Positions 4,958-19,923 of a stretch of 24,000 bases of DNA are shown here, in pieces; within the stretch, counting starts at the first letter, position 1; each line of letters starts with the position of its first letter. Both the position numbers and the translations under genes were made by a program. Origin of the DNA: Pseudanabaena cinerea FACHB-1277 (GTDB lineage Bacteria > Cyanobacteriota > Cyanobacteriia > Pseudanabaenales > Pseudanabaenaceae); NCBI RefSeq assembly GCF_014696345.1, contig NZ_JACJPY010000004.1, positions 87,517-111,516 of the forward strand, read 5' to 3'. The notes beneath the pieces were generated by a model. That model did no database searches, had not been told where the DNA came from, and saw only the letters and a program-made list of their open reading frames with translations.

Positions 4958-6379
4958 ATGGCATCTACAAGAATTATTGATTTGTTACGCGGTGATTTAA
5001 CCATTGATCCTGATCAAAATCCCGATCATCTTTGCACCGTGCGGGGTTGGGTTCGCACCAAACGGGAAGGAAAGGAAATCGCATTTTTAGAAGTCAATGA
5101 TGGATCATCGTTACAGGGTTTGCAGATAGTTTTGTCTCCCACCCTTGACGACTATGAAGCTTTAATCAAACAGATCAATACGGGGGTATCGATCGCAGCC
5201 ACTGGCAAGCTAGTTGCATCTACGGGCAAGGGGCAGAAGGTGGAGATGCAAGCAAGGGAAATCACGGTTTTTGGTACTGCCGATCCTGAAACCTATCCTT
5301 TACAAAAGAAACGTCACTCTATTGAGTTTTTACGCACGATCGCCCACTTAAGACCTCGTACCAATATGTTTGGGGCTGTTTTTCGGGTACGCAATGCCTG
5401 TGCTTTTGCCGTGCATCAATTTTTTCAAGAGCGCGGCTTTTTGTGGGTACATACGCCAATCATCACGGCTAGTGACTGTGAGGGGGCAGGCGAGATGTTT
5501 GGCGTAACGACCCTCGATCTCCAAAAATTAGGGTTGGCGGGTAAACCTGTGGATTACAGCCAAGACTTTTTTGGTAAGCCTGCTTTTTTGACCGTTAGTG
5601 GTCAGCTAGAGGCAGAAATTATGGCAACTGCCTTTTCTAATGTCTATACCTTTGGTCCCACCTTTCGCGCTGAAAATTCCAATACTTCCCGCCATCTTGC
5701 CGAGTTTTGGATGATTGAGCCAGAGGTGGCTTTTTGTGACCTCGAAGGCGATGCTGATCTAGCGGAAGATTTTCTTAAATACATCTTCAATTATGTTTTA
5801 AAAACTTGCCCCGAAGATATGGAATTTTTCCAAGAACGGGTCAATGATCAGGTGATGGTCAATGCGCGGAAGATTATCGATGAGCAGTTTGAACGCATCT
5901 CTTATACTGAGGCGATCGCCATCCTTGAGAAATGCGATAAAAAGTTTGAGTTCCCTGTTTCATGGGGGCTGGATCTGCAATCGGAGCATGAAAGATTTCT
6001 AGCCGAAGAATATTTCCGTAAGCCTGTAATCGTGATGGATTATCCCTTGGGGATCAAGGCTTTTTATATGCGGGTGAATGATGATACAGCCAGCGATCGA
6101 CAAACGGTAAGGGCGATGGATATCCTTGCCCCTGGTGTGGGTGAAATTATTGGTGGTTCACAGCGTGAGGAGCGTCTAGATCTGCTAGAAGCCCGAATCC
6201 GCAGTGTGGGGCTAAATCCTGAAGATTACTGGTGGTATCTAGATCTACGCCGCTATGGTACGGTTCCCCATGCTGGCTTTGGACTTGGTTTTGAGCGTCT
6301 GGTGCAGTTCATCACAGGCATGGGCAATATCCGCGATGTCATTCCGTTTCCGCGCTTTCCTCAAAGTGCCGAATTTTAA
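4958..6379 (+). CDS. asnS: asparagine--tRNA ligase
   Basis: 473-aa ORF with class II motif 2 [21 protein letters not shown] and motif 3 GFGLGFERL. It has an N-terminal OB-fold anticodon-binding region. Confidence 0.95.
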
Positions 6380-6381
6380 GT

Positions 6382-6457
6382 GCGATCGCCGATCCTGTAG
6401 GGTGCGTTACATTTCATTAACGCACCTCATCTGATATTCAAAATTCACGCTTTACTA
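6382..6457 (+). repeat. REP/REPIN-like element family 1, copy 0 (right half degenerate, hairpin loop flipped)
   Basis: GCGATCGCCGATCCTGTAGGGTGCGTTA-CATTTCAT-TAACGCACCTCATCTGATATTCAAAAT matches copy A (10112-10206), except that the 8-nt loop is the reverse complement. Similarity decays after ~6445. Confidence 0.75.
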
Positions 6458-6480
6458 AGATTATTTAGGATTTCTAAAGT

Positions 6481-6877
6481 TTAGGCAACAGTTAAGACTG
6501 TCGGTAAGTTGCGAGGACGCTTTGCCCTCACTGCATCAAGATTAAGCTCTAGCTCTAATACCTCTTGATACAAAAACAAAATCGCGCTCAAAGCCTGATT
6601 TTGTGTTGATGCCGCCACATTTTCATCGATTGCTAAAAGTTAAAAAAGCATTAACTTCATCGCCGCCCATTTCGCTAGGATGGCGCTTGTTATGAAATAA
6701 AATAAATCGCCGAACCCATTGCACATAGGACTTTTCAGTTTGATAGGAGTAATGCTTAACTCGAATAGCATCCCTAACGCGATCAAGTAATTTGCGAGGC
6801 GGTGGCTCAGTCTGCCCATTTGGGGTAAATACAGATATCTGATTTTTTAGTATAGGCTTGGGTATGTTACTCAACAT
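6481..6877 (-). pseudogene. intI: integron-type tyrosine recombinase (IntI) remnant: N-terminal third only, with a frameshift
   Basis: The ORF at 6623-6877 encodes YSYQTEKSYVQWVRRFILFHNKRHP. After a frameshift near the T-run at ~6635-6640, the next frame reads [27 protein letters not shown]...[13 protein letters not shown] and stops at 6481. The catalytic C-terminal two-thirds is absent. Confidence 0.75.
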
Positions 6878-7117
6878 TTTGCACGATAAAACTCCATAGA
6901 GGGATATTACCCCGCAAAAAACTGAATATTACACTTTTTAATTGCTTTATCTAGCAAGTTGTGAGATATTAGGGTCATACAAGTATATATCCTGTAATTT
7001 ACAAGATAATATGTAGTTATACGGCATTAAATCCCCTATCTGAAATTCTCTTTTTCCAAAAGGCAGCAATGTAAATCTAAATGTGTAAAATTATTGACAG
7101 TTCTCTGAGGAAAAAGG

Positions 7118-9217
7118 ATGGAAATTAGTCAACTCAAGACTCTACTGGCAGATTCAGAGAACCCCAAATTAGAATTTAAGAGTCAATGGTATTGCAATAC
7201 AGATCAGCTTGACGATAAGGGCTGGGGAGAGTTTCTAAAGGATTTAATTACACTTGCAAATGGAAATTCAGGTTTTGTAGGTCAAACTGGATATTTAATA
7301 ATCGGTGCATCTGATGAAGATCCCAGAATTGGACAGCAACGGGGAATCTCTAATGTAGCTAGAAATGGAATGTTGTCTAATCTGCAAAAGCTACGTGAAA
7401 CAACACTTCGGAAACTTCGTGAAACTTGTAGCCCATCTCCTGCTGACATCGATCTGAGTTTTGTCGAAGTAGAAGGTAAGCATCTGCTTATTATTGAAGT
7501 TCCGCCTCCAGTTGATGCTGTCAAACTCGATCGTGATTTAAACACCAGAGGAATGAGATTTAAAAAGGGCACTGTTCTAATTCGTGTTGGGCAAGACGTT
7601 AGTGTGGCTGATCCAGCAGAGATAAATAACTTAAGAAAAGGGTATCAGGATACTTGGATTCAAACTCAACGAATGGTGCATAATTTACCACAACCCGATT
7701 ATGTAAACTTTATTGGTAGACAAGATGAGCTTGAGAAGCTTCGGAATTTGCTTAATCCCAGAGATCGTATATGGACAATTGTTATTGATGGAATAGGTGG
7801 GATCGGTAAATCTGCTTTAGCTTTGGAAATAGCACATCGATACTTAAACGAATACAATTTTATTCCTGAAGAAGAGCGATTTCAGTCAATTATTTGGATT
7901 TCAGCAAAAGATTCAATTTTAACTGCTGACGGGATCAAAAAGCGTTTTCAGGTAACCAACACCCTTAATGACATTTATAGTCAGATTTCTGTGGTTTTAG
8001 GAGAACAAGAAATTAGCCGCCATAACTTTAAGGAACAAGGTTTTTTAATCAATCGTGCATTGGGGGCAAGAAGAACTCTTCTAATCATTGATAATCTTGA
8101 GACAGTTGATGATGATCGCGTTAATGCTTTTGTTCGAGAACTTCCTAATCCCACAAAATGTATTGTTACTACCCGTCATCGTATTGATGTAGCAGATCCT
8201 ATTCGACTGTCTGCAATGCCTCGAAAAGATGCACTCTCACTAATTCAGCAAGAATGCGACAAGAAAAATGTTCGATTAGATAATTCGCAAATTGAGCTTC
8301 TGTATAAAAGGACGGCAGGAGTTCCCTTAGCTGTAGTTTGGAGTATTGCTCAAATAAGTTATCACGGCTTTGGAGTAGATCAGGTATTAAAACGCTTGGG
8401 TGATGCAAAAGGCGATATAGCCCGTTTCTGCTTTGAAAACGCTGTTCATCACATTCAAGATAAACCTGCTTATAAAATATTAGCTAGTCTGGCTTTATCT
8501 CCAAGATCGATGAGCCGACAAGAAGTAGGAACTGTTGCTGATTTGTCCGAGCTTGATCAAGATGAGGGGTTAGTGATCCTAGAACGCTTATCGCTAATTA
8601 ATAAGAAAGGTGGTCAATTTAGTTTATTACCTCTAGTTCAAGAGTATATCTTAACTAAGGTTAAAGAATTCCCTTTTACTGATTTGAGGCAATTGGTTAT
8701 TCGGTTCTCAGAAAACTATGCTCCTTCAGGTGCAGACTCGCTATCTGCAATTGAGCAATATTTTGGTTCAGAATTGATTACTCCATTAAAGATTGAAGTT
8801 GCAAAGAAGATTGTTGATCAAATGTGGGAATGGGATAGTCAGTGCGATGAAATAGGCGTGAGTTATTGTATTTCAGCTTTGGAGAAGTTGGCAATTGATA
8901 CGGCAATTGATGCCATAAGAGATATTGCGATGTATTCAAATGTTGCATCTCTGGCTGCGTGGATGTACTCCGCTGCTGCTGGCATATTGATTCATGCTGG
9001 CAGGTTAAGAGATTTAATAAATTTGAGCCTTTCCTATCAAAATTTTGATAGCCTTACTGTTGAATCCTTGAAGAAATTTGAGACTGACAAAGTTGTTCAA
9101 GAAATTGACATAGTGTTGGAGATTCAAAAAGAAAATAAATCAGAAATACTACAGCAGTTAAAAGATAAGTTATTGTCTTCAGAAATATATCCATCTTCTG
9201 GCGACCATGCCGTATAA
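7118..9217 (+). CDS. Schlafen/AlbA_2-like N-terminal domain fused to an NB-ARC-type STAND P-loop NTPase
   Basis: 699-aa ORF. The N-terminus ENPKLEFKSQWY...LANGNSG...GYLIIGASDED resembles the AlbA_2/Schlafen core. Also present are Walker A GIGGIGKSALA (nt ~7787-7813), Walker B LLIIDNLE, CIVTTRHR, GVPLAV (GLPL-like) and a winged-helix-like LSLINKKGGQFSLLPLVQEYI. The ~170-aa helical C-terminus is unassigned. Confidence 0.7.
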   Translation: MEISQLKTLLADSENPKLEFKSQWYCNTDQLDDKGWGEFLKDLITLANGNSGFVGQTGYLIIGASDEDPRIGQQRGISNVARNGMLSNLQKLRETTLRKLRETCSPSPADIDLSFVEVEGKHLLIIEVPPPVDAVKLDRDLNTRGMRFKKGTVLIRVGQDVSVADPAEINNLRKGYQDTWIQTQRMVHNLPQPDYVNFIGRQDELEKLRNLLNPRDRIWTIVIDGIGGIGKSALALEIAHRYLNEYNFIPEEERFQSIIWISAKDSILTADGIKKRFQVTNTLNDIYSQISVVLGEQEISRHNFKEQGFLINRALGARRTLLIIDNLETVDDDRVNAFVRELPNPTKCIVTTRHRIDVADPIRLSAMPRKDALSLIQQECDKKNVRLDNSQIELLYKRTAGVPLAVVWSIAQISYHGFGVDQVLKRLGDAKGDIARFCFENAVHHIQDKPAYKILASLALSPRSMSRQEVGTVADLSELDQDEGLVILERLSLINKKGGQFSLLPLVQEYILTKVKEFPFTDLRQLVIRFSENYAPSGADSLSAIEQYFGSELITPLKIEVAKKIVDQMWEWDSQCDEIGVSYCISALEKLAIDTAIDAIRDIAMYSNVASLAAWMYSAAAGILIHAGRLRDLINLSLSYQNFDSLTVESLKKFETDKVVQEIDIVLEIQKENKSEILQQLKDKLLSSEIYPSSGDHAV

Positions 9218-9331
9218 CAATCCCGTTGCACGCCGACCGTATCAATTTAGTCGGTCAAATCCGAAAGGTTACTAGCGGCGGGTGAACGGAGCCGTTAGGC
9301 TACAAGTCTAGGTAACGGAGCAAAAAAACTG

Positions 9332-9763
9332 ATGCCCAATGATATTGTGAAGTATGAGCCAGATGACGCTGGAAATATTGTGACTCATGCTCTACGACAA
9401 ATTTCTGAAAACTCAGAAATAGTTTTATCTGTCAAGGCAGTTAGCAATTGGATTACTGGTTTTACTTGCTACCTTAGCAACGAGGCTGGATTGTATCGAT
9501 CTCAAGAAGTCGATTTCAAAGAAACATTCAAAGATTTTAATCAGTATATTCGCCTATTCAATGCAGGATCTGATTTTCGTGCAAGATCTACCGCAAATTT
9601 TTGTAGACGAGTTCTTCATATGGAAGATTCAAAAACTAAACGCCATTTCATTATCCAGATTGTTAGCAGTTTTCGCCGCGATATGGGTAACTCAATAGAA
9701 AGATTTTCAGAGATTGAAGGACAAATTGTTAATGGATTTCTTGAAAACCCATTTGGGCGTTAA
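9332..9763 (+). CDS. hypothetical protein (143 aa)
   Basis: Clean ORF on the same strand as, and 114 nt downstream of, the STAND gene. The region is AT-rich and lacks HIP1. No recognisable motif. Confidence 0.45.
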   Translation: MPNDIVKYEPDDAGNIVTHALRQISENSEIVLSVKAVSNWITGFTCYLSNEAGLYRSQEVDFKETFKDFNQYIRLFNAGSDFRARSTANFCRRVLHMEDSKTKRHFIIQIVSSFRRDMGNSIERFSEIEGQIVNGFLENPFGR

Positions 9764-9795
9764 AATAAAGTTAATGTTTAAAATTTACTGCTGCT

Positions 9796-10149
9796 ATGCT
9801 CACTGCCTCTCGTACCGTGTCAGTTCCCTTATCTACTAATGCCGATGGTGTGATTTTGGTTGGCAACACTCGTGTAACCATTGATACAGTTGTAGGAAAT
9901 TACAAGCAAGGATTGTCACCTGAAGAAATTGTATCTCGCTACTCATCACTTAATCTATCAGATGTTTATAGCACTATTGCTTTTTATCTAAGCTATCAAC
10001 TAGAGGTTGAAGAATACCTAAAACAACGTCAGCGCATAGCTAAAGGAATTCGAGAAGAGAATCAACTACGGTTTAATTCTCAAGATTTGCGCGATCGCCT
10101 TCTTGCAAGTACGATCGCCGATCTTGTAGGGTGCGTTAATGAAATGTAA
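9796..10149 (+). CDS. DUF433-domain protein (antitoxin-like HTH)
   Basis: 117-aa ORF. GNTRVTIDTVVGNYKQGLSPEEIVSRYSSLNLSDVYSTIAFY fits the DUF433 pattern. The last ~11 codons and the stop lie inside REP copy A. Confidence 0.6.
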   Translation: MLTASRTVSVPLSTNADGVILVGNTRVTIDTVVGNYKQGLSPEEIVSRYSSLNLSDVYSTIAFYLSYQLEVEEYLKQRQRIAKGIREENQLRFNSQDLRDRLLASTIADLVGCVNEM

Positions 10150-10206
10150 CGCACCTCATCTGATATTCAAAATGCGTGCGTTACGCTGACGCTAACACAC
10201 CCTACA
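10112..10206 (+). repeat. REP/REPIN-like element family 1, copy A (full)
   Basis: Flank CGATCGCCGATCTT plus an 80-bp core (10126-10205): GTAGGGTGCGTTA-ATGAAATG-TAACGCACC-spacer-GTGCGTTA-CGCTGACGC-TAACACACCCTAC. Confidence 0.85.
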
Positions 10207-10227
10207 ACATTTCTATATTTCCGATGA

Positions 10228-10779
10228 TTAATCATCCCAAGAGCCTTGAGGTTTGGCTATACGTTCACCACTACCCCAATCCTTGGGATAGACACCTTGA
10301 GTAATGAACCGATGAATACTCGAATATTGCCAATCTTGAGGATTCTCACATAAACCATGCCTCACTGGATTATCATGAATATAATCGCAGTGAATCGCAA
10401 AATCTTTCTCATCACGAATTAAATGTTCCCAAAATCGGCGTTGCCAAAGATTGCTTTCCCCACGCTTCTCTCTTGACTGGGAAATATCACGATTTACTTC
10501 TAATAGCTTTCCATAATGTTTTGTGACGTAAGTTTTGATTAATCTTAATCGTACTGATAAATCACGATCATCAGGCGGTAAAGTCCACAAACAATGGAAA
10601 TGATCGGGCAATAGAACAAAAGCATCAATAGTCAAAGGATACTTCACCCTCACCTTTTCAATCGATTCCCTAAGTGCTTTACGAGCCACATCACAACATA
10701 ACCAAGGTTCACGCTGATAAGTAACCTGAGTAATGAAAAAAGTACCTCCCAATACATGAGATCTTCGATAGTTAGACAT
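10228..10779 (-). CDS. REP-associated tyrosine transposase (RAYT, IS200/IS605-like Y1 HUH transposase)
   Basis: HUH motif in LLPDHFHCLW and a catalytic-Tyr motif in CDYIHDNPVRHGL. It is flanked on both sides by full REP copies A and B. The start is set at MSNYRR (10779), because the longer ORF to 10851 reads through REP B. Confidence 0.8.
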   Translation of the reverse strand: MSNYRRSHVLGGTFFITQVTYQREPWLCCDVARKALRESIEKVRVKYPLTIDAFVLLPDHFHCLWTLPPDDRDLSVRLRLIKTYVTKHYGKLLEVNRDISQSREKRGESNLWQRRFWEHLIRDEKDFAIHCDYIHDNPVRHGLCENPQDWQYSSIHRFITQGVYPKDWGSGERIAKPQGSWDD

Positions 10780-10812
10780 TTGCGTCTGAAGATAACTGAC
10801 ATAGTTAATATA

Positions 10813-10903
10813 CGCCGATCTTGTAGGGTGCGTTAATGAAATGTAACGCACCTCATCTAATGGTCAAAATTCGTGCGTTACGCTGACGCTAACACACCCT
10901 ACA
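10813..10903 (+). repeat. REP/REPIN-like element family 1, copy B (full)
   Basis: The core at 10823-10902 is nearly identical to copy A. Confidence 0.85.
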
Positions 10904-10983
10904 TTTGTTGTACCTTAAACGGGATAAGTTCTTAAGGCTACTTATTGGAACTGAATCACAGCAAAATTTGATACAATAGCTAC

Positions 10984-11506: not shown

Positions 11507-11516
11507 TCTAAAAAAT

Positions 11517-11612
11517 GCGATCGCCGATCTTATAGGGTGCGTTAATGAAATGTAACGCGCCTTATCTAATGGTCAAAATGCGTGCGTTACGCTGACGCTA
11601 ACACACCCTACA
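11517..11612 (+). repeat. REP/REPIN-like element family 1, copy C (full; GTAG changed to ATAG)
   Basis: The core at 11532-11611 is aligned by eye to copies A, B and D. Confidence 0.85.
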
Positions 11613-11667
11613 TTTCCTAGTCGGCTATAATACTGGACAAGGCAATGATCTAGGAAAACTTATAATC

Positions 11668-11943: not shown

Positions 11944-12326
11944 TGCAAGGATACGTCAATAAGAATTGTGAAGCCACGATTCTTGTAGTCGTTCGTAACA
12001 ATGCCAAACTAAAATCTATTAACACTGTCATTGATACAGGATTTACTGGTTTCCTAAGCCTCCCGAACAACATCATTACTGAACTGGGTTTGCCATGGAG
12101 TTATCGCGATCGCGGAACATTAGGAGACGGTAGTGAGGTTTTGTTTGATATCTATGACGCAGTAGCTATTTGGGATGGCAAAGCTAAAGAGATTGAAGTA
12201 AATTCAGCAGAAACAGATCCATTGATTGGGATGAGTATGCTCCGTGGGTATCGACTGCAAGTAGATACAATTGAGGGCGGATTGGTAATAATTACAGACT
12301 TGTCAGAGCGATCGCCGATCTTGTAG
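11940..12326 (+). CDS. retropepsin-like (clan AA) aspartic protease
   Basis: VIDTGFTGFLSLP contains the D-T-G catalytic triplet in the usual hydrophobic context. Start taken at MMQGYV (11940). The stop codon TAG lies inside REP copy D (cttgTAGggtg). Confidence 0.6.
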   Translation: MMQGYVNKNCEATILVVVRNNAKLKSINTVIDTGFTGFLSLPNNIITELGLPWSYRDRGTLGDGSEVLFDIYDAVAIWDGKAKEIEVNSAETDPLIGMSMLRGYRLQVDTIEGGLVIITDLSERSPIL

Positions 12327-12403
12327 GGTGCGTTAATGAAATGTAACGCACCTTATCTAATGTTCAAGATTCGTGCGTTACGCTGACGCTAACACACCCT
12401 ACA
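12308..12403 (+). repeat. REP/REPIN-like element family 1, copy D (full)
   Basis: Core at 12323-12402. Confidence 0.85.
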
Positions 12404-12423
12404 ACTATAACTAAGATTAAGCC

Positions 12424-12687: not shown

Positions 12688-13021
12688 CGATAATCATAAA
12701 TTGAAGATTCAGTTTACAGATGTTTTTAAGCGTCAAGTTCGAGGTTTGGCAAAGCGCTATAAAAGGATTAAATTAGATATTCAACCAGTTTTAGATCAAC
12801 TTCAGAGTGGTGACTTAGTTGGCGATCAGATCCAAGGTACTGGCTTTACAGTATTTAAGGTTCGCATCAAAAATAGCGATATTCAGAAGGGTAAAAGCGG
12901 GGGCTATAGGTTGATTTACTATATTAAAACCTCTGAGAATATTTTATGTGTTTTTTGTCAAAGCACCGAATTTTATTCAGAAAAGTCAGGTGCGTTATAT
13001 TGTATTAACGCACCCTACTGA
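12680..13021 (+). CDS. RelE/ParE-HigB-like toxin, C-terminus replaced by a REP half-element
   Basis: KGKSGGYRLIYYIKTSENI is a RelE/Gp49-type signature. From ~12969 onward the reading frame runs through REP copy E and stops at the TGA following CCCTAC. Confidence 0.6.
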   Translation: MSSDNHKLKIQFTDVFKRQVRGLAKRYKRIKLDIQPVLDQLQSGDLVGDQIQGTGFTVFKVRIKNSDIQKGKSGGYRLIYYIKTSENILCVFCQSTEFYSEKSGALYCINAPY

Positions 13022-13033
13022 ATTGGCGATCGC
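12969..13033 (-). repeat. REP family 1, copy E (half element, inverted, variant loop)
   Basis: AATTTTATTCAGAAAAGTCAGGTGCGTTA-TATTGTAT-TAACGCACCCTAC...GGCGATCGC shares its spacer with copy G. Confidence 0.7.
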
Positions 13034-13040
13034 ACTATAA

Positions 13041-13641: not shown

Positions 13642-13760
13642 TTGAGGATATAGGTTTATAGCTAAACATTAGCTGATATCAATTTGACCGTCAATATCTA
13701 GTCACCCTATCATCAATAAGTTTACCATGCGCCAAAACAACTAGTTATCGTCAACTATTG

Positions 13761-13808
13761 GGTACATTCTATTTCATTAATACACCGTACATGATTGGCG
13801 AAGGTCGC
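13761..13808 (-). repeat. REP family 1, degenerate half copy
   Basis: GGTACATTCTATTTCATTAATACACCGTACATGATTGGCGAAGGTCGC aligns to the hairpin-plus-flank of the family with about 10 substitutions. Confidence 0.45.
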
Positions 13809-13822
13809 ACAGATTTTATCTA

Positions 13823-13916
13823 GTAGCGTGAGTTAGCAGAGCGTAACGCACAAGTAATTAGCATTAAATAAGGTGCGTTACATTTCATTAACGCACCCTA
13901 CAAGATCGGCGATCGC
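13823..13916 (-). repeat. REP/REPIN-like element family 1, copy F (full length, inverted, distal half diverged)
   Basis: It ends with GGTGCGTTACATTTCATTAACGCACCCTACAAGATCGGCGATCGC. The proximal part GTAGCGTGAGTTAGCAGAGCGTAACGCAC is a diverged second hairpin. Confidence 0.75.
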
Positions 13917-13940
13917 ATTTATAGTTAGTTAGATTCTTTT

Positions 13941-14189: not shown

Positions 14190-14482
14190 ACTTCTTTACG
14201 TTTGTTGAGAGAATTGATACGTTTAGTAATATAGGCGGTGATGACAAACCCGTCTTCTTGTGCTTCTTTATAAATTGTAACCAAATGCTTATTATCACTT
14301 AGCAACTTGATCGCTAAAAGCTCACCATCATTGCCTTCTAAAATTCTATCAGGATTTTCTATGGTTTGGATGATTTCGGGCTGAAGGTGCAGAAGTTCGG
14401 GATGCCCTTCGGTTATGTGTTGCCATCTTTCTTCAGTTAGGCGAATGGTTAGTCCGCTTTTGGCGGATGCGATCAAGGGCAT
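14171..14482 (-). CDS. small toxin-like partner protein (103 aa), family not recognised
   Basis: It overlaps the downstream DUF2283 gene by 19 nt. This is a two-gene architecture like the neighbouring TA pairs. Confidence 0.45.
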   Translation of the reverse strand: MPLIASAKSGLTIRLTEERWQHITEGHPELLHLQPEIIQTIENPDRILEGNDGELLAIKLLSDNKHLVTIYKEAQEDGFVITAYITKRINSLNKRKEVWSQPL

Positions 14483-14570
14483 AGGGGTTGTCGAGTAAGA
14501 GGGTTGCTAAGTTATCAATCTAAATCTAAATTGCCCCCTCATCATCAAATTTACTATTCGGTAACTCATT

Positions 14571-14632
14571 CAATTTTATTCAGAAAAATAAGGTGCGTTA
14601 CATTTCATTAACGCACCCTACAAGATCGGCGG
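14571..14632 (-). repeat. REP family 1, copy G (half element, inverted)
   Basis: AATTTTATTCAGAAAAATAAGGTGCGTTACATTTCATTAACGCACCCTACAAGATCGGCGG. It abuts the stop codon of the 14633-15031 gene. Confidence 0.75.
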
Positions 14633-15031
14633 TTACTGACAAGCACCTATAATTCTTGGATCAATAACTATTCCACTAATACGCCTATTTAAAGTAAGAT
14701 AACCTTGGAAGTTACCTTCTTCATCAACAATAATTGGAGGATTTGTTGCCCTAGGGTTGCAGGCACTAACATCTGAAAACTTACTTCCCCAGTTTCCAAA
14801 TCTGTTATATATACTTGTATCAGAAAATCGGCTTCCAAAGTCACCGAATCTATTAGACAAAGAGTTATCATCAAATTTGTTGCAATTAATACATCCAAGA
14901 AAAACAATACCTCGCCTTCCATTTTCTAAAGAACCATAGATTAGTAAAGGTGATTCAGCAAAAGAATTATCTACAAGCAAGAAAAAGCTAGAAAGCAAAG
15001 AAAAAAAAGACAGTTTTTTATGTATTTTCAT
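14633..15031 (-). CDS. secreted 4-Cys protein with duplicated NRFG-x-(F/W)GS(R/K)FSD-x-S motif
   Basis: 132-aa ORF with an N-terminal signal-peptide-like MKIHKKLSFFSLLSSFFLLVDNSFA. It carries the tandem motifs NRFGDFGSRFSDTS and NRFGNWGSKFSDVS and four Cys residues. Very AT-rich. Confidence 0.55.
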   Translation of the reverse strand: MKIHKKLSFFSLLSSFFLLVDNSFAESPLLIYGSLENGRRGIVFLGCINCNKFDDNSLSNRFGDFGSRFSDTSIYNRFGNWGSKFSDVSACNPRATNPPIIVDEEGNFQGYLTLNRRISGIVIDPRIIGACQ

Positions 15032-15109
15032 ATATTTTAAATGTTAAATGTGCCTAACACCAAACAAATTCTTGATTTTGGAGCTTTTATAATGTTGAAA
15101 TATAAGAGT

Positions 15110-15736
15110 TTATTTTTTGAATTTTCTGTACTCATCCCTACGAAAGATGTAATCAGTATGACTAGGAGTAATATTCCAAATAGAAAAAATAATTTCTTCT
15201 TCGTTAAATCCCTTCGCTTCAAAGAATCTGATTTTCTTTTTTAGGTCTGTACTTGTAGAATCATTTTCTTGATAAGACTTCTCTCCTTCCTTGACTCCGC
15301 TTTCTCTAGCTTTTCTTAAGTCTTCTTTTGTTGCAGTCATTCCACTGGAAAAATAAAGTTCTGCTGCTTTCCCCATACCGTATGTCCAGCCATAAACAAA
15401 ACTAGAGCCGACTAATCCTCCTGCTCCTGGCAAACCAATTTTGAATAAAGCTAGAATTGTCTGCTGTCCAATAATACCACCGCCTATTACTGCTACGATT
15501 TCACCTACAGATTTTTCGCTAATTTTGTAGCCATAAACATTTCCAATAGCTCTAACCATAAGATACTGAACGGGCGTAATTGTAACAATATCAGCAAATG
15601 GAACAGGAGCTAATGCTAGGGTTGCACCAGCAGCACCAGCTACTACCCTAATCTGAGAACAAATCTTTTTTCTCTCATCATCATTACGGTCTGAGAAATC
15701 TCCGTTAATATATTCATATATATCGTCTAAGTTCAT
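15110..15736 (-). CDS. DUF697-like glycine-rich membrane protein
   Basis: 208-aa ORF. ALAPVPFADIVTITPVQYLMVRAIGNVYG and LPGAGGLVGSSFVYGWTYGMGKAA match the DUF697/YcjF-type pattern as I recall it. The C-terminal tail is charged. Confidence 0.55.
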   Translation of the reverse strand: MNLDDIYEYINGDFSDRNDDERKKICSQIRVVAGAAGATLALAPVPFADIVTITPVQYLMVRAIGNVYGYKISEKSVGEIVAVIGGGIIGQQTILALFKIGLPGAGGLVGSSFVYGWTYGMGKAAELYFSSGMTATKEDLRKARESGVKEGEKSYQENDSTSTDLKKKIRFFEAKGFNEEEIIFSIWNITPSHTDYIFRRDEYRKFKK

Positions 15737-15752
15737 AACGCTTTAGGTTAAG

Positions 15753-16175
15753 TTATCTCATGAGTGTACATGTGTAATAAAGTGCATTTTGAAAAAGTGA
15801 TGTAGATGGTCGGGTAAAACTGCTACTTACTTTTTCTATATTTTGTATTACTTGCCCACGTTGCCAAATCGTAGACTTAATAAGTCGGTACTCGTTTTGA
15901 TTACAATTAACTTGATAGACATTGTATTCAGCACGAATTCTGTCAAGAGATTCACCATAAATAGGTACTCGGAACTCTCGATTATCTAAATTGCTTATTT
16001 TTTGTACATCAAGAATGTTTATGTAGTAACACATATTACGTTCTTGATGAAATGAATCAACTTTAGCTGTAACAAAGTCAATCTTAGGACATACATTGTT
16101 TTGGGCATTGGTCTCAATTGGCAACGAAAAAGATAAGTTAGTGAGTAAAAAGATGTAGCCTATAATTTTTTTCAC
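15753..16175 (-). CDS. secreted 4-Cys protein (140 aa), unknown family
   Basis: Signal-peptide-like MKKIIGYIFLLTNLSFSLPIETNA and four Cys residues. It is the first gene of the AT-rich operon, with a 16-nt gap to the next gene. Confidence 0.5.
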   Translation of the reverse strand: MKKIIGYIFLLTNLSFSLPIETNAQNNVCPKIDFVTAKVDSFHQERNMCYYINILDVQKISNLDNREFRVPIYGESLDRIRAEYNVYQVNCNQNEYRLIKSTIWQRGQVIQNIEKVSSSFTRPSTSLFQNALYYTCTLMR

Positions 16176-16265
16176 TGTTTAAGTCTGTGTATTTTTTATT
16201 TGTTTGTATAAAGTATATTAAATGAATTTATTGAGATTTAAAAGCGGAAAAAGACGGAATGCTAA

Positions 16266-16393
16266 AAATTTACGCTCATATAGGAATTTGGGTGAAAGAC
16301 CTACTTTATTAAAAAGTCACACTTTGTCGCCGCAACGGTTTAAGCCAGATCGTTTAATTGGCTTCACCTGCTTACCCATATGAGCGAAAATTT
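16266..16393. repeat. 19-bp imperfect inverted repeats bracketing a ~90-bp structured segment
   Basis: AAATTTACGCTCATATAGG (16266-16284) pairs with CCCATATGAGCGAAAATTT (16375-16393) at 17/19 positions. There is an internal hairpin AAGCCA-n11-TGGCTT. Confidence 0.5.
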
Positions 16394-16400
16394 AATTTAA

Positions 16401-16434
16401 GTCGGAAAAAGGCAAAAAATACGGTTATAGTCGG
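16401..16434 (+). repeat. ~34-bp direct repeat, copy 1 (CGGAAAAAGGCAAAAAATACGGTTATAGTCGG)
   Basis: A related copy lies at 17167-17201, and a partial copy GCGGAAAAAGACGG at 16244-16257. The two long copies bracket the vapBC module. Confidence 0.5.
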
Positions 16435-16484
16435 AGCGATATGAGTTAGCTAGACAGCGAGCTGATCAGTGAATAAAACCTGAA

Positions 16485-16874
16485 TCATGGAATTGTTGCT
16501 ATATCTGCATAGCCTAAAATTTTTGTATCCATAGTTACTAAAGGGCAGTTGTAAACTTTAGCTGTCGCTATGATAATTTGATCAGCAGGATCACGATGGA
16601 AATTTACCAACTGAGTGGATGCAATGGCAATTTGAGGGGTTAGGTCTAGTAATTGTACGGCTGGGTAGGACAAAGCTTTTTCAAACCACTCTGAAATTTC
16701 ACAAGGAAGCGTCAAGCGATTGTATTCGACTAATTTTGCAATTTCCCAACAGGAAATGACGCTAATGCCAATAGTTAAAGACTCGTGGTCTTCAATGGCT
16801 ATTTTGGCAGTTTGGCTAAGTCTTGGATCGCCATGTACCCACCAAATCCAGATATGTGTGTCTAAAATAATCAT
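16485..16874 (-). CDS. vapC: VapC-family PIN-domain toxin
   Basis: MIILDTHIWIWW is a PIN N-terminus with the conserved Asp. The start overlaps the antitoxin stop (ATGA at 16871-16874). Confidence 0.8.
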   Translation of the reverse strand: MIILDTHIWIWWVHGDPRLSQTAKIAIEDHESLTIGISVISCWEIAKLVEYNRLTLPCEISEWFEKALSYPAVQLLDLTPQIAIASTQLVNFHRDPADQIIIATAKVYNCPLVTMDTKILGYADIATIP

Positions 16875-17074
16875 ACTATGACTTCCCAATCGGACATTGC
16901 TACAGGTTCCATAGGATCGATGTATTCGATTGGTAAGCCGCGCAGGGGATATTTTTTAGTTGTAGATGGCGTATGGTGGGTCAAGCCAAATACTTGCAAT
17001 AGCTTCAAGGTCTTTTCTAGCTCAGATTCAGACATCCGATTAAGTTCATCAATGAGCAACTCTTTTACAGTCAT
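16871..17074 (-). CDS. VapB-position antitoxin (67 aa)
   Basis: Small ORF immediately upstream of vapC and translationally coupled to it. Confidence 0.6.
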   Translation of the reverse strand: MTVKELLIDELNRMSESELEKTLKLLQVFGLTHHTPSTTKKYPLRGLPIEYIDPMEPVAMSDWEVIV

Positions 17075-17201: not shown

Positions 17202-17227
17202 GTTTGTGGATTTATGGCTTTGTAAGT

Positions 17228-17740
17228 ATGGATGTTAAAGAATTGTTGAAATTTGTTGATGAGAGTATGTTTGCGAAGACGGGGAAAAGACTTAATGATT
17301 TGCAGCGTCAGGTGATTGAGGGAGCGCTGAATCATCGGAAATATGTGGATATTGCGGAATCTTTTGAGAAAAGCGAAGGTCATGTTAAAGATACTGGTTA
17401 TGAGCTTCTACAAATACTTTCAGAGATTTTTGAAGAACCAGTTAAGAAAGGGAACCTTAAATCTGTTTTAGAGAGACAGAGAAGTAATGTAACTGTTAAT
17501 GTTGGGGATGGGAATGTCGGAAACTTTGGACATATCAATAATTGCGTGAATTTTAATAGCGATCGCCTATCACCTAAACCCAATCAAGTTCCATTAGAAA
17601 AAACTGACACTCTGCAAGAAAAGCAAATAGCGAAAATCAATAAACTGCGCGATCGCGGTTTAAATGATGAAGAAATTGCCGAACTTTTAGAGATTCCTTT
17701 AGAGTCAATTACAGCTATAAATTTAGAAGAATCGGCTTAG
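17228..17740 (+). CDS. stand-alone HTH protein resembling the N-terminal module of cyanobacterial STAND/NACHT-WD40 conflict-system proteins
   Basis: LNDLQRQVIEGALNHRKYVDIAESFEKSEGHVKDTGYELLQILSEIF is a sigma70-region-4/LuxR-like HTH. A second HTH-like KINKLRDRGLNDEEIAELLEI lies at the C-terminus. Start taken at MDVKELL (17228). Confidence 0.5.
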   Translation: MDVKELLKFVDESMFAKTGKRLNDLQRQVIEGALNHRKYVDIAESFEKSEGHVKDTGYELLQILSEIFEEPVKKGNLKSVLERQRSNVTVNVGDGNVGNFGHINNCVNFNSDRLSPKPNQVPLEKTDTLQEKQIAKINKLRDRGLNDEEIAELLEIPLESITAINLEESA

Positions 17741-17765
17741 TTCTTAAACCAATTAGCATCATGCG

Positions 17766-18197
17766 TTACACATTGCGCGATCGCCTAGGAAATATATCAA
17801 AAGCCAACTGCGAACGGTAAAAGCACACATCAAACTCAATAAAAAAGTTTAGCTGACCTAAAATAAGTGGTGGATCGTTAGATTTAGCCCAAGCAAAAGC
17901 CAAAATAACTGGTGGAAAGTCATCAATTTGCGCTATCACAGCTAACCCCTTTGCTTCCACTGGCGCAAGATTACCTGATAGGGGAATTGAGAGAGCTTTT
18001 GATCTTCCCAGACAGCCCCTAATTCTAAGCCAAGAGCATAGGGCATAACATTTAGGCTCGCTCCCGTATCTAAATAATCCAAAAACTTCCAAAGTGCGAT
18101 CGCCATAACTCAAAGCAATAGGCACGCAAGGAAAGACATTCGTTTCACCCTTTGAATTTCTTCGCTCAATAAAAGGAAATCGCTTAGGAATTGACAT
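17766..18197 (-). CDS. hypothetical protein, possibly a degenerate retropepsin-like fold
   Basis: 143-aa ORF overlapping the upstream small ORF by 14 nt. Its size and partner architecture mirror 11668-12326, but the expected D-(T/S)-G position reads R-Y-G. Confidence 0.4.
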   Translation of the reverse strand: MSIPKRFPFIERRNSKGETNVFPCVPIALSYGDRTLEVFGLFRYGSEPKCYALCSWLRIRGCLGRSKALSIPLSGNLAPVEAKGLAVIAQIDDFPPVILAFAWAKSNDPPLILGQLNFFIEFDVCFYRSQLAFDIFPRRSRNV

Positions 18198-18465: not shown

Positions 18466-18592
18466 CAATTAGCATTAAGTGCTACACCTTTCGTGATCGC
18501 CTATCACCCAAACCCAATCAAGTTCCATTAGAAAAGCCAGATTCTCAAAGAGAGAAACAAATAGCTAAAGTTAAGAAATTTCGCGATCGCGG
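18466..18592 (+). pseudogene. gene remnants: copy of the 17750-17785 segment fused at a HIP1-like site to a copy of 17559-17658
   Basis: 18493-18592 translates DRLSPKPNQVPLEKPDSQREKQIAKVKKFRDRGL, compared with DRLSPKPNQVPLEKTDTLQEKQIAKINKLRDRGL in the intact gene. There is no in-frame ATG after the upstream stop at 18450-18452. Confidence 0.6.
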
Positions 18593-18631
18593 CTTACAAC
18601 GCTTTGCGCTCAAACCCAAACCAAAAGAAAT

Positions 18632-18747: not shown

Positions 18748-19923
18748 TTAGCGGTTATGCAGCTTATCGACAAACCTATGGATGCGATCGCAGCCTTTGC
18801 GGATGGTATCGAGGTCAGTGGCATAGGATAGACGAATGCAATTATCTAAGCCAAAGGCAATTCCAGGGATTACTGCCACCTGCATTTCTTCTAAAAGCTT
18901 TTCACAAAACTCTAGGGAAGACATATTGAAGGATTTGATGCTGGGGAATAGATAAAATGCACCATCGGGCTTGGGGCAGGTGATGCCATCCATCGCTGTG
19001 AGCAAGTCATACATGACATCGCGGCGTTCGGCAAAGGCTAAGCGCATTGTCTCCACACATTCTTGAGAATCATTGAGGGCGGTGACGGCTCCATGCTGGG
19101 CAAAGGTACAGATATTGGAAGTGCTATGACCTTGGATCATGGTGGCGGCTTTGATGATCGTAGGATCACCTGCTAAGTAACCCACGCGCCAGCCTGTCAT
19201 CGAGTAAGCTTTGGCAAAACCACTGCTGATTAGGGTGCGATCGTACATGGCGGGGCTGACGGCGGCAATGCTGAGATGATCTGCGCCATCGTACAGAATT
19301 TTTTCGTAAATCTCATCGGAGACGATATAGACATGGGGGTGACGCTCCAGCACATCGGCTAAAGCTTTGATTTCCGTAGGGCTGTACACCATGCCTGTGG
19401 GATTAGAAGGGGAATTAAGTACAAATAGCTTGGTTTGGGGTGTAATCGTGGCTTCTAATTGTTCGGGGGTAATTTTGTAGCCGCTTTCTTCGGTGGTGAT
19501 GACAAATACGGGCGTGGCTGCGGCTAGTTTTGCCATTTCGGGATAGCTGACCCAGAATGGTACAGGAATAATTACTTCATCCCCAGGATCAAGGATCGCC
19601 ATCATCAAGTTATACAGGGAATGTTTACCGCCATTGGTGACGATGATCTGTTCGGGCTTGTAGGTGAGTTGGTTATCGCGCAGGAGCTTGTCAGCGATCG
19701 CTTGTTTGAGTTCAGGAATACCTGCGGCGGCGGTATAACGGGTTTTACCTTGGTCGAGGGCAGTTTTGGCGGCGGCTTTGATATGGTCAGGGGTGTCAAA
19801 GTCTGGCTCACCAGCACTAAAACTACAAATATCTATACCACTAGCCTTCATTGCTTTTGCCTTTGCGTCGATCGCTAGGGTTAAGGAAGGCAGAATATTA
19901 CTAAGTCTTTTTGCCAGTTGCAT
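18748..19923 (-). CDS. PLP-dependent class I aminotransferase (aspartate aminotransferase-like)
   Basis: 391-aa ORF with N-terminal [14 protein letters not shown] and a PLP-lysine motif in [16 protein letters not shown]. Confidence 0.9.

What the first reader, a model, noticed from the sequence alone, without database searches (positions are those of the whole stretch)
14633..16175. Very AT-rich, HIP1-free three-gene operon: two 4-Cys secreted proteins flanking a DUF697-like membrane protein
Three co-oriented minus-strand genes (gaps of 16 and 78 nt) are visibly far more AT-rich than the rest of the window. The first (140 aa) and third (132 aa) genes both start with signal-peptide-like segments, and each contains exactly four cysteines. 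The third carries a tandem duplicated motif: NRFGDFGSRFSDTS / NRFGNWGSKFSDVS. The middle protein has the glycine-rich hydrophobic core I associate with DUF697/YcjF-type membrane proteins (PVPFADIVTITPVQYLMVRAIGNVYG; LPGAGGLVGSSFVYGWTYGMG). It lacks the GTPase or ATPase partner those domains usually accompany. I know of no described system with this composition. It could be an exported toxin/immunity set, an envelope-acting defence module, or a phage-derived cassette.
Basis: partly seen in the sequence, partly recalled or inferred. Interest (0 to 1): 0.7.

Follow-up and report, generated by a model that had tools for sequence, protein, structure and literature searches.

The report
Three separable accessory genes, not a system
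Three real, AT-rich, co-oriented genes of Pseudanabaena cinerea (two exported four-cysteine proteins around a small DUF697 membrane protein) are each found alone or deleted in close relatives, so they are not a fixed three-part system; the third gene does belong to a very large family of exported-protein domains that the Pfam and NCBIfam copies searched do not describe.

Summary
Three minus-strand genes (140, 208 and 132 aa; gaps of 16 and 78 nt) have GC3 of 20-25%, against 45-52% in core genes. They lie in a 3.6-kb HIP1-free stretch. Both outer proteins have signal-peptide-like N-termini and four conserved cysteines. The middle protein passes Pfam DUF697. All three are under purifying selection (dN/dS 0.09-0.14).

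The proposed three-gene system is not supported. The trio occurs only in close Pseudanabaena relatives, as collinear DNA about 79% identical. Elsewhere each gene occurs alone. Relatives also carry decay variants: the DUF697 gene reduced to a 32-aa remnant between intact neighbours, the second and third genes deleted, or the first gene stopped early. I found no phage relatives and no convincing defence-model match, and only the third gene's domain has relatives on plasmid records.

The window is a low-GC island full of toxin-antitoxin pairs, with a REP-associated transposase. The trio's terminator hairpin is one of that transposase's REP copies.

One by-product is worth noting. The third protein is a stand-alone copy of a roughly 95-aa domain, usually C-terminal, found in at least 3,242 protein clusters across many phyla. 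It has no Pfam or NCBIfam model. AlphaFold2 predicts it confidently (pLDDT 95), and the model has no match in PDB.

The parts
15753..16175 (-). gA: a 140-aa exported protein with four cysteines, from a rare family restricted to the lineage
   Evidence: ORF with GTG start. The N-terminus MKK[IL]IGY is conserved. Only 5 homologous clusters were found among 5.8 billion proteins, and the 4 Cys are invariant. There is no significant Pfam, NCBIfam or PDB-sequence match: Adhesin_E reaches E=0.04, below its cut-off. dN/dS is 0.14.
15110..15736 (-). gB: a stand-alone short DUF697/YcjF-family protein (208 aa) with two Gly/Ala-rich hydrophobic segments and a variable C-terminal tail
   Evidence: Pfam PF05128 at 34.7 bits, above the 27.7-bit cut-off. 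Hydrophobic stretches lie at about residues 25-62 and 76-115. The core, residues 28-150, is conserved in 62 clusters while the tail varies. GenBank names it 'DUF697 domain-containing protein', WP_190349340.1. dN/dS is 0.09.
14633..15031 (-). gC: a 132-aa exported protein consisting of a signal peptide plus one copy of a widespread domain that Pfam and NCBIfam do not describe (beta-hairpin, two and a half 16-residue repeats, beta-hairpin, C-terminal Cys)
   Evidence: The close family has 14 clusters. A profile search finds 3,242 clusters at E<=1e-3. The domain is C-terminal in 154 of 163 proteins. None of 46 members matches Pfam or NCBIfam. The AlphaFold2 model has pLDDT 95.1. Foldseek finds no PDB or BFVD match, and there is no PDB sequence match. 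dN/dS is 0.11.
14572..14640 (-). REP-type hairpin repeat that overlaps the gC stop codon and is the only terminator-like site of the unit
   Evidence: Terminator-like hairpin at 14621-14588 followed by a T-run. It belongs to a repeat family with at least 9 copies in the island, which also occurs after the gC homologue in L002. The family flanks a REP-associated tyrosine transposase at 10228-10851 (NF047646, 184.6 bits).
16176..16272 (-). Conserved upstream (leader/promoter) region of gA
   Evidence: The blastn alignment of window 14547-16257 to L002 5926-7640 continues upstream of gA. Window 16194-16272 also matches L002 5473-5550. No promoter was demonstrated: the consensus scan found no more sites than in shuffled sequence.
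16485..17074 (-). VapBC-type toxin-antitoxin pair (PIN toxin 16485-16889, small antitoxin 16871-17074), present here but absent at this position in relatives
   Evidence: PIN domain at E=1.1e-16. At this position L002, L070 and L072 instead carry a 71-aa glycine-zipper-like ORF that is absent from the window.
17204..17740 (+). Divergently oriented 178-aa HTH protein (Sigma70_r4-like here; its homologues are labelled HTH_VMAP-M9). It neighbours gA in relatives.
   Evidence: 81% identical to the L002 protein that carries PF26355. The window protein's own Pfam hits are Sigma70_r4, below the cut-off. It is linked to gA in L002, L070 and L072 but not in L017.

Best explanation
This is an operon-like run of three unrelated, individually separable accessory genes. 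It lies in a low-GC, HIP1-poor island of Pseudanabaena cinerea FACHB-1277 that is rich in toxin-antitoxin pairs and REP elements.

**Inferred workings.**
- Transcription starts upstream of gA and ends at the REP-type hairpin that overlaps the gC stop codon.
- gA and gC are exported through Sec, their signal peptides are cleaved, and their cysteines form disulfides outside the cytoplasm.
- In gC the likely disulfide pairs are C47-C50 and C91-C131.
- gC is a free-standing copy of a roughly 95-aa module that other bacteria attach to the C-terminus of secreted enzymes and Ig-like proteins. It most likely acts as a binding or anchoring module in the envelope or cell surface.
- gB is a small DUF697 protein held at a membrane by two Gly/Ala-rich hydrophobic hairpins. 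It works without a dedicated NTPase, as many cyanobacterial stand-alone DUF697 proteins appear to do.

**Shown here.** The genes are real and under purifying selection. The family assignments, the separability of the genes and the layout of the island are established.

**Inferred only.** Export, disulfide pairing, co-transcription, a binding role for gC and a membrane role for gB.
For: - **Gene reality.** dN/dS is 0.09-0.14, and each protein has a conserved family.
- **Separability.** gB stands alone in L011, L013 and L015. gA stands alone in L017 and L018. gC stands alone in L001 and L007-L010.
- **Decay variants.** In L072, gA and gC are intact around a 32-aa remnant of gB. In L070/L071, gB is gone and gC is reduced to a C-terminal fragment with an internal stop. 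In L073-L075, gA has a premature stop.
- **The trio is confined to close relatives,** where the DNA is collinear at 79% identity.
- **gC is a modular extracytoplasmic domain.**
  - There are 3,242 clusters, and the domain is C-terminal in 154 of 163 proteins.
  - It is fused to a metallo-beta-lactamase, Ig-like and PKD domains, a T9SS tail, a protein annotated DUF3298/DUF4163, and Bflower.
  - Across 48 loci in Acidobacteriota, Gemmatimonadota, Nitrospirota, Burkholderiales and others there are no recurrent neighbours.
- **Cysteine pattern.** All four Cys are present in 102 of 164 sequences, none in 25, and only the first two in 12.
- **Single terminator-like site,** located after gC.
- **Island context.** It holds a REP-associated transposase with its REP copies, TA pairs and a Schlafen/NB-ARC NTPase. 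These genes are AT-richer than their flanks in five of the six other loci compared, the exception being gB in L015.
Against: - The tight spacing (16 and 78 nt) and shared strand are what a functional operon looks like.
- gA and gC stay adjacent and intact in three lineages (the window, L002 and L072), so a gA-gC partnership is not excluded.
- The island's content (a STAND NTPase, TA pairs and an HTH_VMAP-M9 neighbour) fits a conflict or defence setting.
- gB gives a weak PADLOC PDC-S29 match (E=5e-4).
- No expression data, SignalP prediction, topology prediction or complex modelling could be obtained.
- No structure could be predicted for gA or gB.
- The binding role proposed for gC rests only on its domain architecture.
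Confidence: 0.62

Rival explanations
1. The two exported four-cysteine proteins, gA and gC, form a functional pair: a secreted or envelope two-protein module, possibly controlled by the upstream HTH protein. On this view gB is a dispensable passenger between them.
For: gA and gC are both intact and adjacent in the window, in L002-L006 and in L072, where gB has decayed to a remnant. Both have signal peptides and 4 conserved Cys. The HTH_VMAP-M9 gene and a 71-aa glycine-rich ORF accompany gA in L002, L070 and L072.
Against: gA persists intact where gC is a pseudogene fragment (L070/L071), and it stands alone in L017. gC homologues at 69% identity have other neighbours. All lineages with gA and gC adjacent are close relatives, so shared ancestry explains the linkage. 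hhalign finds no relationship between gA and gC.
Confidence: 0.15
2. The trio is an exported toxin/immunity set or an envelope-acting anti-phage or competition module. gB would be the membrane immunity or effector protein, and gA and gC the secreted components.
For: The trio sits in an accessory island that holds TA pairs and a Schlafen/NB-ARC STAND NTPase. gB gives a weak PADLOC PDC-S29 match. The locus varies between strains, as is typical of conflict loci. A gC-type domain is fused to a Bflower domain in one plasmid protein, and a Bflower protein, Cernunnos, is reported as an anti-phage cassette (bioRxiv 10.1101/2024.07.02.601686).
Against: In L072, gB is lost while gA and gC stay intact, which argues against gB being a required immunity protein. 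Each gene occurs alone elsewhere. There is no convincing PADLOC hit and no meaningful PHROG hit, and no phage or viral-contig relatives. No toxin-like domain was detected. The gC domain is not Bflower: hhalign gives 3% probability.
Confidence: 0.1
3. The ORFs are spurious products of AT-rich sequence or decaying pseudogenes without function.
For: The composition is extreme (GC3 20-25%). Relatives show deletions and premature stops. gA has very few homologues.
Against: dN/dS is 0.09-0.14 at dS of about 1 for all three genes. Cysteines and motifs are invariant. gB passes a curated Pfam cut-off. gC belongs to a family of thousands with a confident predicted fold.
Confidence: 0.03

Closest known systems
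DUF697 / YcjF family (Pfam PF05128; E. coli YcjF, UPF0283)
   Same: gB matches the Pfam model above its cut-off and has the Gly/Ala-rich hydrophobic core. GenBank already names it a DUF697 domain-containing protein.
   Different: E. coli ycjF is nearly always adjacent to the P-loop gene ycjX, belongs to a sigma-32 transcription unit, and is sometimes linked to psp genes (PMC3041696). gB is much shorter than the TIGR01620 DUF697 profile (208 aa against 329 positions). It has no NTPase neighbour here or in L011, L013 or L015, and it carries a variable C-terminal tail. It belongs to a cyanobacterial set of stand-alone DUF697 proteins of 164-243 aa.
4-fold beta flower domain (Pfam PF21784, Bflower)
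   Same: One plasmid protein (Aquabacterium olei pTB101) has Bflower at its N-terminus and a gC-type domain at its C-terminus. The terminal hairpin of gC (VVDxxGxFxGYLTxN) resembles the Bflower hairpin motif locally.
   Different: Neither gC nor any of 46 family members matches PF21784 even at E<=1. The profile comparison gives 3% probability. The centre of the gC domain is a pair of 16-residue N-x-[FY]-G-x-[FYW]-G-S repeats, not hairpins.
C-terminal binding or sorting modules of secreted bacterial proteins (carbohydrate-binding modules, cell-wall-binding domains, T9SS C-terminal domains)
   Same: The gC-type domain is about 95 aa and C-terminal in 94% of carriers. It follows varied secreted N-terminal parts: a metallo-beta-lactamase, Ig-like and PKD domains, and a protein annotated DUF3298/DUF4163.
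   Different: It has no sequence or fold match to any such module. One protein carries both this domain and a T9SS tail, so it is not the T9SS signal. Its ligand is unknown.
REP elements with a REP-associated tyrosine transposase (RAYT)
   Same: The hairpin after gC belongs to a repeat family with at least 9 copies. Copies of it flank a gene that matches NCBIfam NF047646 at 184.6 bits.
   Different: This concerns only the 3' end and the island context, not the three proteins. Whether this REP copy terminates transcription has not been tested.

Membership tests
DUF697 / YcjF (PF05128) | Match to the family profile above the curated gathering score | tested here: met
   34.7 bits against a 27.7-bit cut-off, E=1.8e-8, covering residues 29-132. 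The precomputed PF05128 label is present on nearly all of 62 homologous clusters.
DUF697 / YcjF (PF05128) | Hydrophobic membrane-associated core | tested here: inconclusive
   Two hydrophobic stretches reach 19-residue Kyte-Doolittle means of 1.58 and 1.87. No dedicated topology predictor or structure model was available.
YcjX-YcjF pair (proteobacterial type) | Adjacent YcjX-type P-loop NTPase gene | tested here: not met
   No NTPase gene lies next to gB in the window or next to its homologues in L011, L013 and L015. For the ycjX-ycjF adjacency see PMC3041696.
Sec-exported proteins (gA, gC) | N-terminal signal peptide with n, h and c regions and a small-x-small cleavage site | tested here: inconclusive
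   The pattern is present and conserved: the gC family has A-x-A|E, and gA has T-N-A|Q or S-x-S|Q. Each has one N-terminal hydrophobic segment. SignalP was not available.
4-fold beta flower (PF21784) | Profile match or profile-profile similarity | tested here: not met
   No hit in gC or in 46 relatives at E<=1. hhalign probability is 3%. In the one fused protein, Bflower covers a different region, residues 5-95.
Toxin/immunity or multi-gene defence system | Components co-occur and are retained together across lineages | tested here: not met
   Each gene occurs alone. gB is lost between intact gA and gC in L072. 48 distant gC-domain loci lack gA and DUF697.
Known or candidate anti-phage systems (PADLOC-DB v2) | Match to a defence-system protein model | tested here: not met
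   gA and gC have no hit. gB gets only PDC-S29 at 17.7 bits, E=5e-4, with no matched stretch passing the threshold on its own.
Phage- or plasmid-borne cassette | Relatives on phage genomes, viral contigs or plasmids | tested here: not met
   None of the three genes has a relative on phage genomes or IMG/VR contigs. gA and gB have none on plasmids. Only distant gC-domain proteins occur, on 10 plasmid or chromid records.
Adhesin_E (PF16747), for gA | Profile match above the cut-off | tested here: not met
   E=0.04, 14.6 bits against a 23.7-bit cut-off.
REP / RAYT element (3' hairpin) | A repeated palindromic element associated with a REP-associated tyrosine transposase | tested here: met
   At least 9 copies, including 14572-14640, with two flanking the ORF at 10228-10851. 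That ORF matches NF047646 at 184.6 bits, above the 80-bit cut-off.

The most novel reading that the evidence does not exclude
The cluster is a strain-variable envelope conflict module. It would comprise gA, gB and gC, together with the upstream HTH_VMAP-M9 regulator and, in relatives, a 71-aa glycine-zipper protein. The exported proteins would act on the cell surface or on competitors or phage. The gC domain would serve as the targeting part: a fold with no match in PDB, no Pfam or NCBIfam model, and present in thousands of secreted bacterial proteins.
Probability: 0.1. Interest if true: 0.65.

Novelty: new member of a known kind. Interest (0 to 1): 0.3.

Why it matters
As a "system", the cluster matters little. 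It is a lineage-restricted juxtaposition of accessory genes already annotated as a DUF697 protein plus hypothetical proteins. Showing that it is separable prevents a false new-system call.

Two by-products have some value:
- **The gC-type domain.** It forms a large family (at least 3,242 clusters at 50% identity) spread across many phyla. It is extracytoplasmic and mostly C-terminal, has no Pfam or NCBIfam model, and has a confident predicted structure with no PDB match. It is a good candidate for a new domain definition and for ligand-binding experiments.
- **Stand-alone short DUF697 proteins.** These are common in cyanobacteria, so DUF697 function does not depend on a fused or adjacent NTPase.

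Tried and rejected
- **First gC model.** AlphaFold2 on gC with only its 15 close relatives gave an unusable model (pLDDT 47.5). Repeating it with 46 diverse domain sequences gave pLDDT 95.1.
- **Genome scan.** A 7-sequence sub-alignment, A4, worked.
- **Rfam.** There were no matches in the window at gathering thresholds, so the repeat is not a described RNA family.
- **gB tail.** I considered that the C-terminal tail of gB shares an HTH-like motif with the neighbouring HTH protein. BLASTP gave E=0.052 over 15 residues, so I rejected this. The Pex14_N hit (E=0.012, below cut-off) is likewise not accepted.
- **gA and gC as homologues.** Rejected.
- **gC domain as Bflower.** Rejected.
- **Integron attC sites.** I considered this for the repeats, because cassette-sized units lie 700-800 nt apart. 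REP elements with a RAYT are the better explanation. I did not search for an integron integrase or test an attC model.
- **Look-up of a representative-library protein (P0091).** This returned only a 947-bp contig without DNA. Cluster look-ups of 10 distant gC-domain proteins gave no organism names.
Full report
**1.

- The three minus-strand ORFs are gA 15753-16175 (140 aa, GTG start), gB 15110-15736 (208 aa) and gC 14633-15031 (132 aa). The gaps are 16 and 78 nt.
- GC is 32-37% and GC3 is 20-25%. The window's housekeeping genes have GC3 of 45-52%; these include TypA, an Asx-tRNA synthetase and an aminotransferase.
- HIP1 (GCGATCGC) occurs 37 times in the window, against 0.36 expected. None lies between 13916 and 17559.
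- Two qualifications apply. The whole segment from about 6.4 to 18.6 kb is low-GC and HIP1-poor, and a second HIP1 gap lies at 6389-10091. Several of the island's HIP1 copies also sit inside a repeated element.
- The cysteine counts and positions, the tandem motif and the quoted gB peptides are all present.
- An exact protein look-up places the window in Pseudanabaena cinerea FACHB-1277. There gB is annotated 'DUF697 domain-containing protein' and gC 'hypothetical protein'.

**2. The genes are real**

- Against the orthologous trio in metagenomic locus L002, dN/dS is 0.14 (gA), 0.09 (gB) and 0.11 (gC), at dS of about 0.9-1.1.
- The four cysteines are invariant in both the gA and the gC close families.
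- gB passes Pfam DUF697 at 34.7 bits, above the 27.7-bit cut-off.
- The only terminator-like hairpin in 14400-16600 follows gC, at 14621-14588. That is compatible with one transcription unit. The promoter scan was uninformative.

**3. The trio is not a conserved system**

The full 140-208-132 arrangement appears only in close relatives.
- L002-L006 carry it as collinear DNA 79% identical over window 14547-16257.
- L068 is near-identical to the window.
- L069 carries gA followed by the start of gB before the contig ends.

Outside those relatives each gene occurs alone.
- gB at 82% identity in Pantanalinema rosaneae has no gA or gC within 5 kb.
- gB at 67% identity (Pseudanabaena FACHB-1998) and at 56% identity likewise stands alone.
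- gA at 76% identity stands alone in L017 and L018.
- gC at 68-69% identity has different neighbours in Lyngbya confervoides and in L007-L010.

Close relatives also show decay of the locus.
- In L072, gA and gC are intact, but gB is a 32-aa remnant (residues 56-87).
- In L070 and L071, gA is intact, gB is absent, and gC is reduced to residues 85-132 with an internal stop.
- In L073-L075, gA has a premature stop at codon 122 and is followed by a PIN toxin-antitoxin pair.

Loss of gB between intact gA and gC argues against gB being a required immunity partner.

In relatives, an HTH_VMAP-M9 gene and a 71-aa glycine-rich ORF lie upstream of gA. In the window the 71-aa ORF is missing and a VapBC pair (16485-17074) lies there instead.

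**4. No mobile-element or defence signature**

- gA and gB have no relatives on phage genomes, IMG/VR contigs or plasmids.
- gC has no relatives on phage genomes or viral contigs.
- PHROGs gives nothing meaningful. PADLOC gives only a 17.7-bit match of gB to the unvalidated candidate PDC-S29.

**5. What each protein is**

*gB.*
- It is one of many stand-alone short DUF697 proteins: 62 clusters of 164-243 aa.
- The core, residues 28-150, is strongly conserved and the tail varies.
- It has two hydrophobic Gly/Ala-rich segments.
- Proteobacterial ycjF is paired with ycjX, belongs to a sigma-32 unit, and is loosely linked to psp genes (PMC3041696). No such partner exists here.

*gA.*
- It is a rare exported protein with only 5 clusters.
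- It has no significant Pfam, NCBIfam or PDB-sequence match.
- It is unrelated to gC.

*gC.*
- It is the unexpected part. A profile of its family finds 3,242 clusters at E<=1e-3 and 1,934 at E<=1e-10, among 1.84 billion representatives.
- The homologous region is about 95 aa and is C-terminal in 154 of 163 proteins. It sometimes occurs in two copies.
- It follows signal peptides or lipoprotein signals.
- It is fused to a metallo-beta-lactamase, Ig-like and PKD domains, a T9SS tail, a protein annotated as containing DUF3298 and DUF4163, and, on an Aquabacterium plasmid, an N-terminal Bflower domain.
- Carriers include Acidobacteriota, Gemmatimonadota, Nitrospirota, Burkholderiales, Patescibacteria, Calditrichaceae and Methylomirabilota.
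- None of 46 diverse members matches any Pfam or NCBIfam model.
- With a 46-sequence alignment, AlphaFold2 gives pLDDT 95.1 and pTM 0.87. The model has an N-terminal hairpin, a long non-regular centre made of the 16-residue repeats, a C-terminal hairpin and a short helix.
- Foldseek finds nothing in PDB or BFVD, and a profile search of PDB sequences finds nothing.
- The domain is not Bflower: hhalign gives 3% probability.
- The cysteine patterns suggest two pairs, C47-C50 and C91-C131: all four are present in 102 of 164 sequences, none in 25, and only the first two in 12.
- In 48 loci from other phyla there is no DUF697 or gA neighbour and no recurrent neighbour at all.

**6. Context**

- The island lies between the tRNA synthetase gene (4958-6379) and the aminotransferase gene (18748-19923).
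- It carries a Schlafen/AlbA_2 + NB-ARC NTPase at 7118-9217.
- It carries several toxin-antitoxin pairs: DUF433, ParE/RelE-like, DUF4160/DUF2442, PBECR2/DUF2283 and PIN.
- It carries a REP-associated tyrosine transposase at 10228-10851 (NF047646, 184.6 bits).
- A hairpin repeat (GGTGCGTTA-N8-TAACGCACC followed by a T-run) occurs at least 9 times, mostly just after gene 3' ends. One copy overlaps the gC stop codon.
- In five of the six other loci compared, homologues of these genes are also AT-richer than their flanks. The exception is gB in L015.

**7. Verdict**

- The best explanation is an operon-like juxtaposition of separable accessory genes in a variable island (confidence about 0.6).
- A gA-gC partnership (about 0.15) and a conflict module (about 0.1) remain possible.
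- The gC-type domain deserves its own follow-up as a large domain family that the Pfam and NCBIfam copies searched do not describe.

Noticed in passing
window 6373-6479, 10102-10208, 10799-10905, 11508-11614, 12299-12405 (+ orientation); 12969-13036, 13741-13800, 13852-13920, 14572-14640 (- orientation); also L002 7551-7602 and 8347-8397: A REP-like hairpin repeat (core CGCCGATCTTGTAGGGTGCGTTAATGAAATGTAACGCACCTTAT) lies just after gene 3' ends, 700-800 nt apart, often next to a HIP1 site. It delimits small, mostly toxin-antitoxin cassettes. Two copies flank the transposase gene. Rfam has no match.
   Followed up: partly
window 10228-10851 (-): A 207-aa REP-associated tyrosine transposase (NCBIfam NF047646 at 184.6 bits; Pfam Y1_Tnp), probably the enzyme that spreads the hairpin repeat. 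This exact protein sequence is not in the 15-billion-protein collection.
   Followed up: partly
window 7118-9217 (+): A 699-aa protein with an N-terminal Schlafen/AlbA_2 domain and an NB-ARC/STAND NTPase domain. It looks like a candidate defence NTPase but matched no PADLOC model. The adjacent 143-aa ORF at 9332-9763 has no family match.
   Followed up: partly
L002 5575-5790; also L070 1028-1243 and L072 730-945; absent from the window: A conserved 71-aa glycine-zipper-like small membrane ORF (…AAVGAGVVGVALIAPIGMAGVVGMGLIGVAASW…) lies between the HTH_VMAP-M9 gene and gA in relatives. In the window a VapBC pair (16485-17074) lies between those two genes instead. In L002 the ORF appears to be flanked by a direct repeat (5473-5550 and about 5926-5990).
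   Followed up: partly
L067 (Aquabacterium olei plasmid pTB101) 2599-3273: [quoted passage not shown] It lies between IS110 transposases and next to a YoeB/Phd toxin-antitoxin pair. A Bflower protein (Cernunnos) is reported as an anti-phage integron cassette (bioRxiv 10.1101/2024.07.02.601686).
   Followed up: partly
window 17561-17662 and 18495-18596; 17750-17787 and 18466-18503: A second pair of direct repeats (102 nt at 81% identity, and 38 nt at 82%) brackets the region downstream of the HTH gene. The second 102-nt copy (18495-18596) gives a weak protein-level match to residues 106-145 of the HTH protein, which suggests a partial duplication.
   Followed up: no
L007 3562-7167 (also L008-L010): In another cyanobacterial lineage the gC homologue (129 aa) lies between a 591-aa protein with a faint DUF900 hit and a 306-aa protein with no family. 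This arrangement recurs on four contigs and may be a different conserved context for gC.
   Followed up: no
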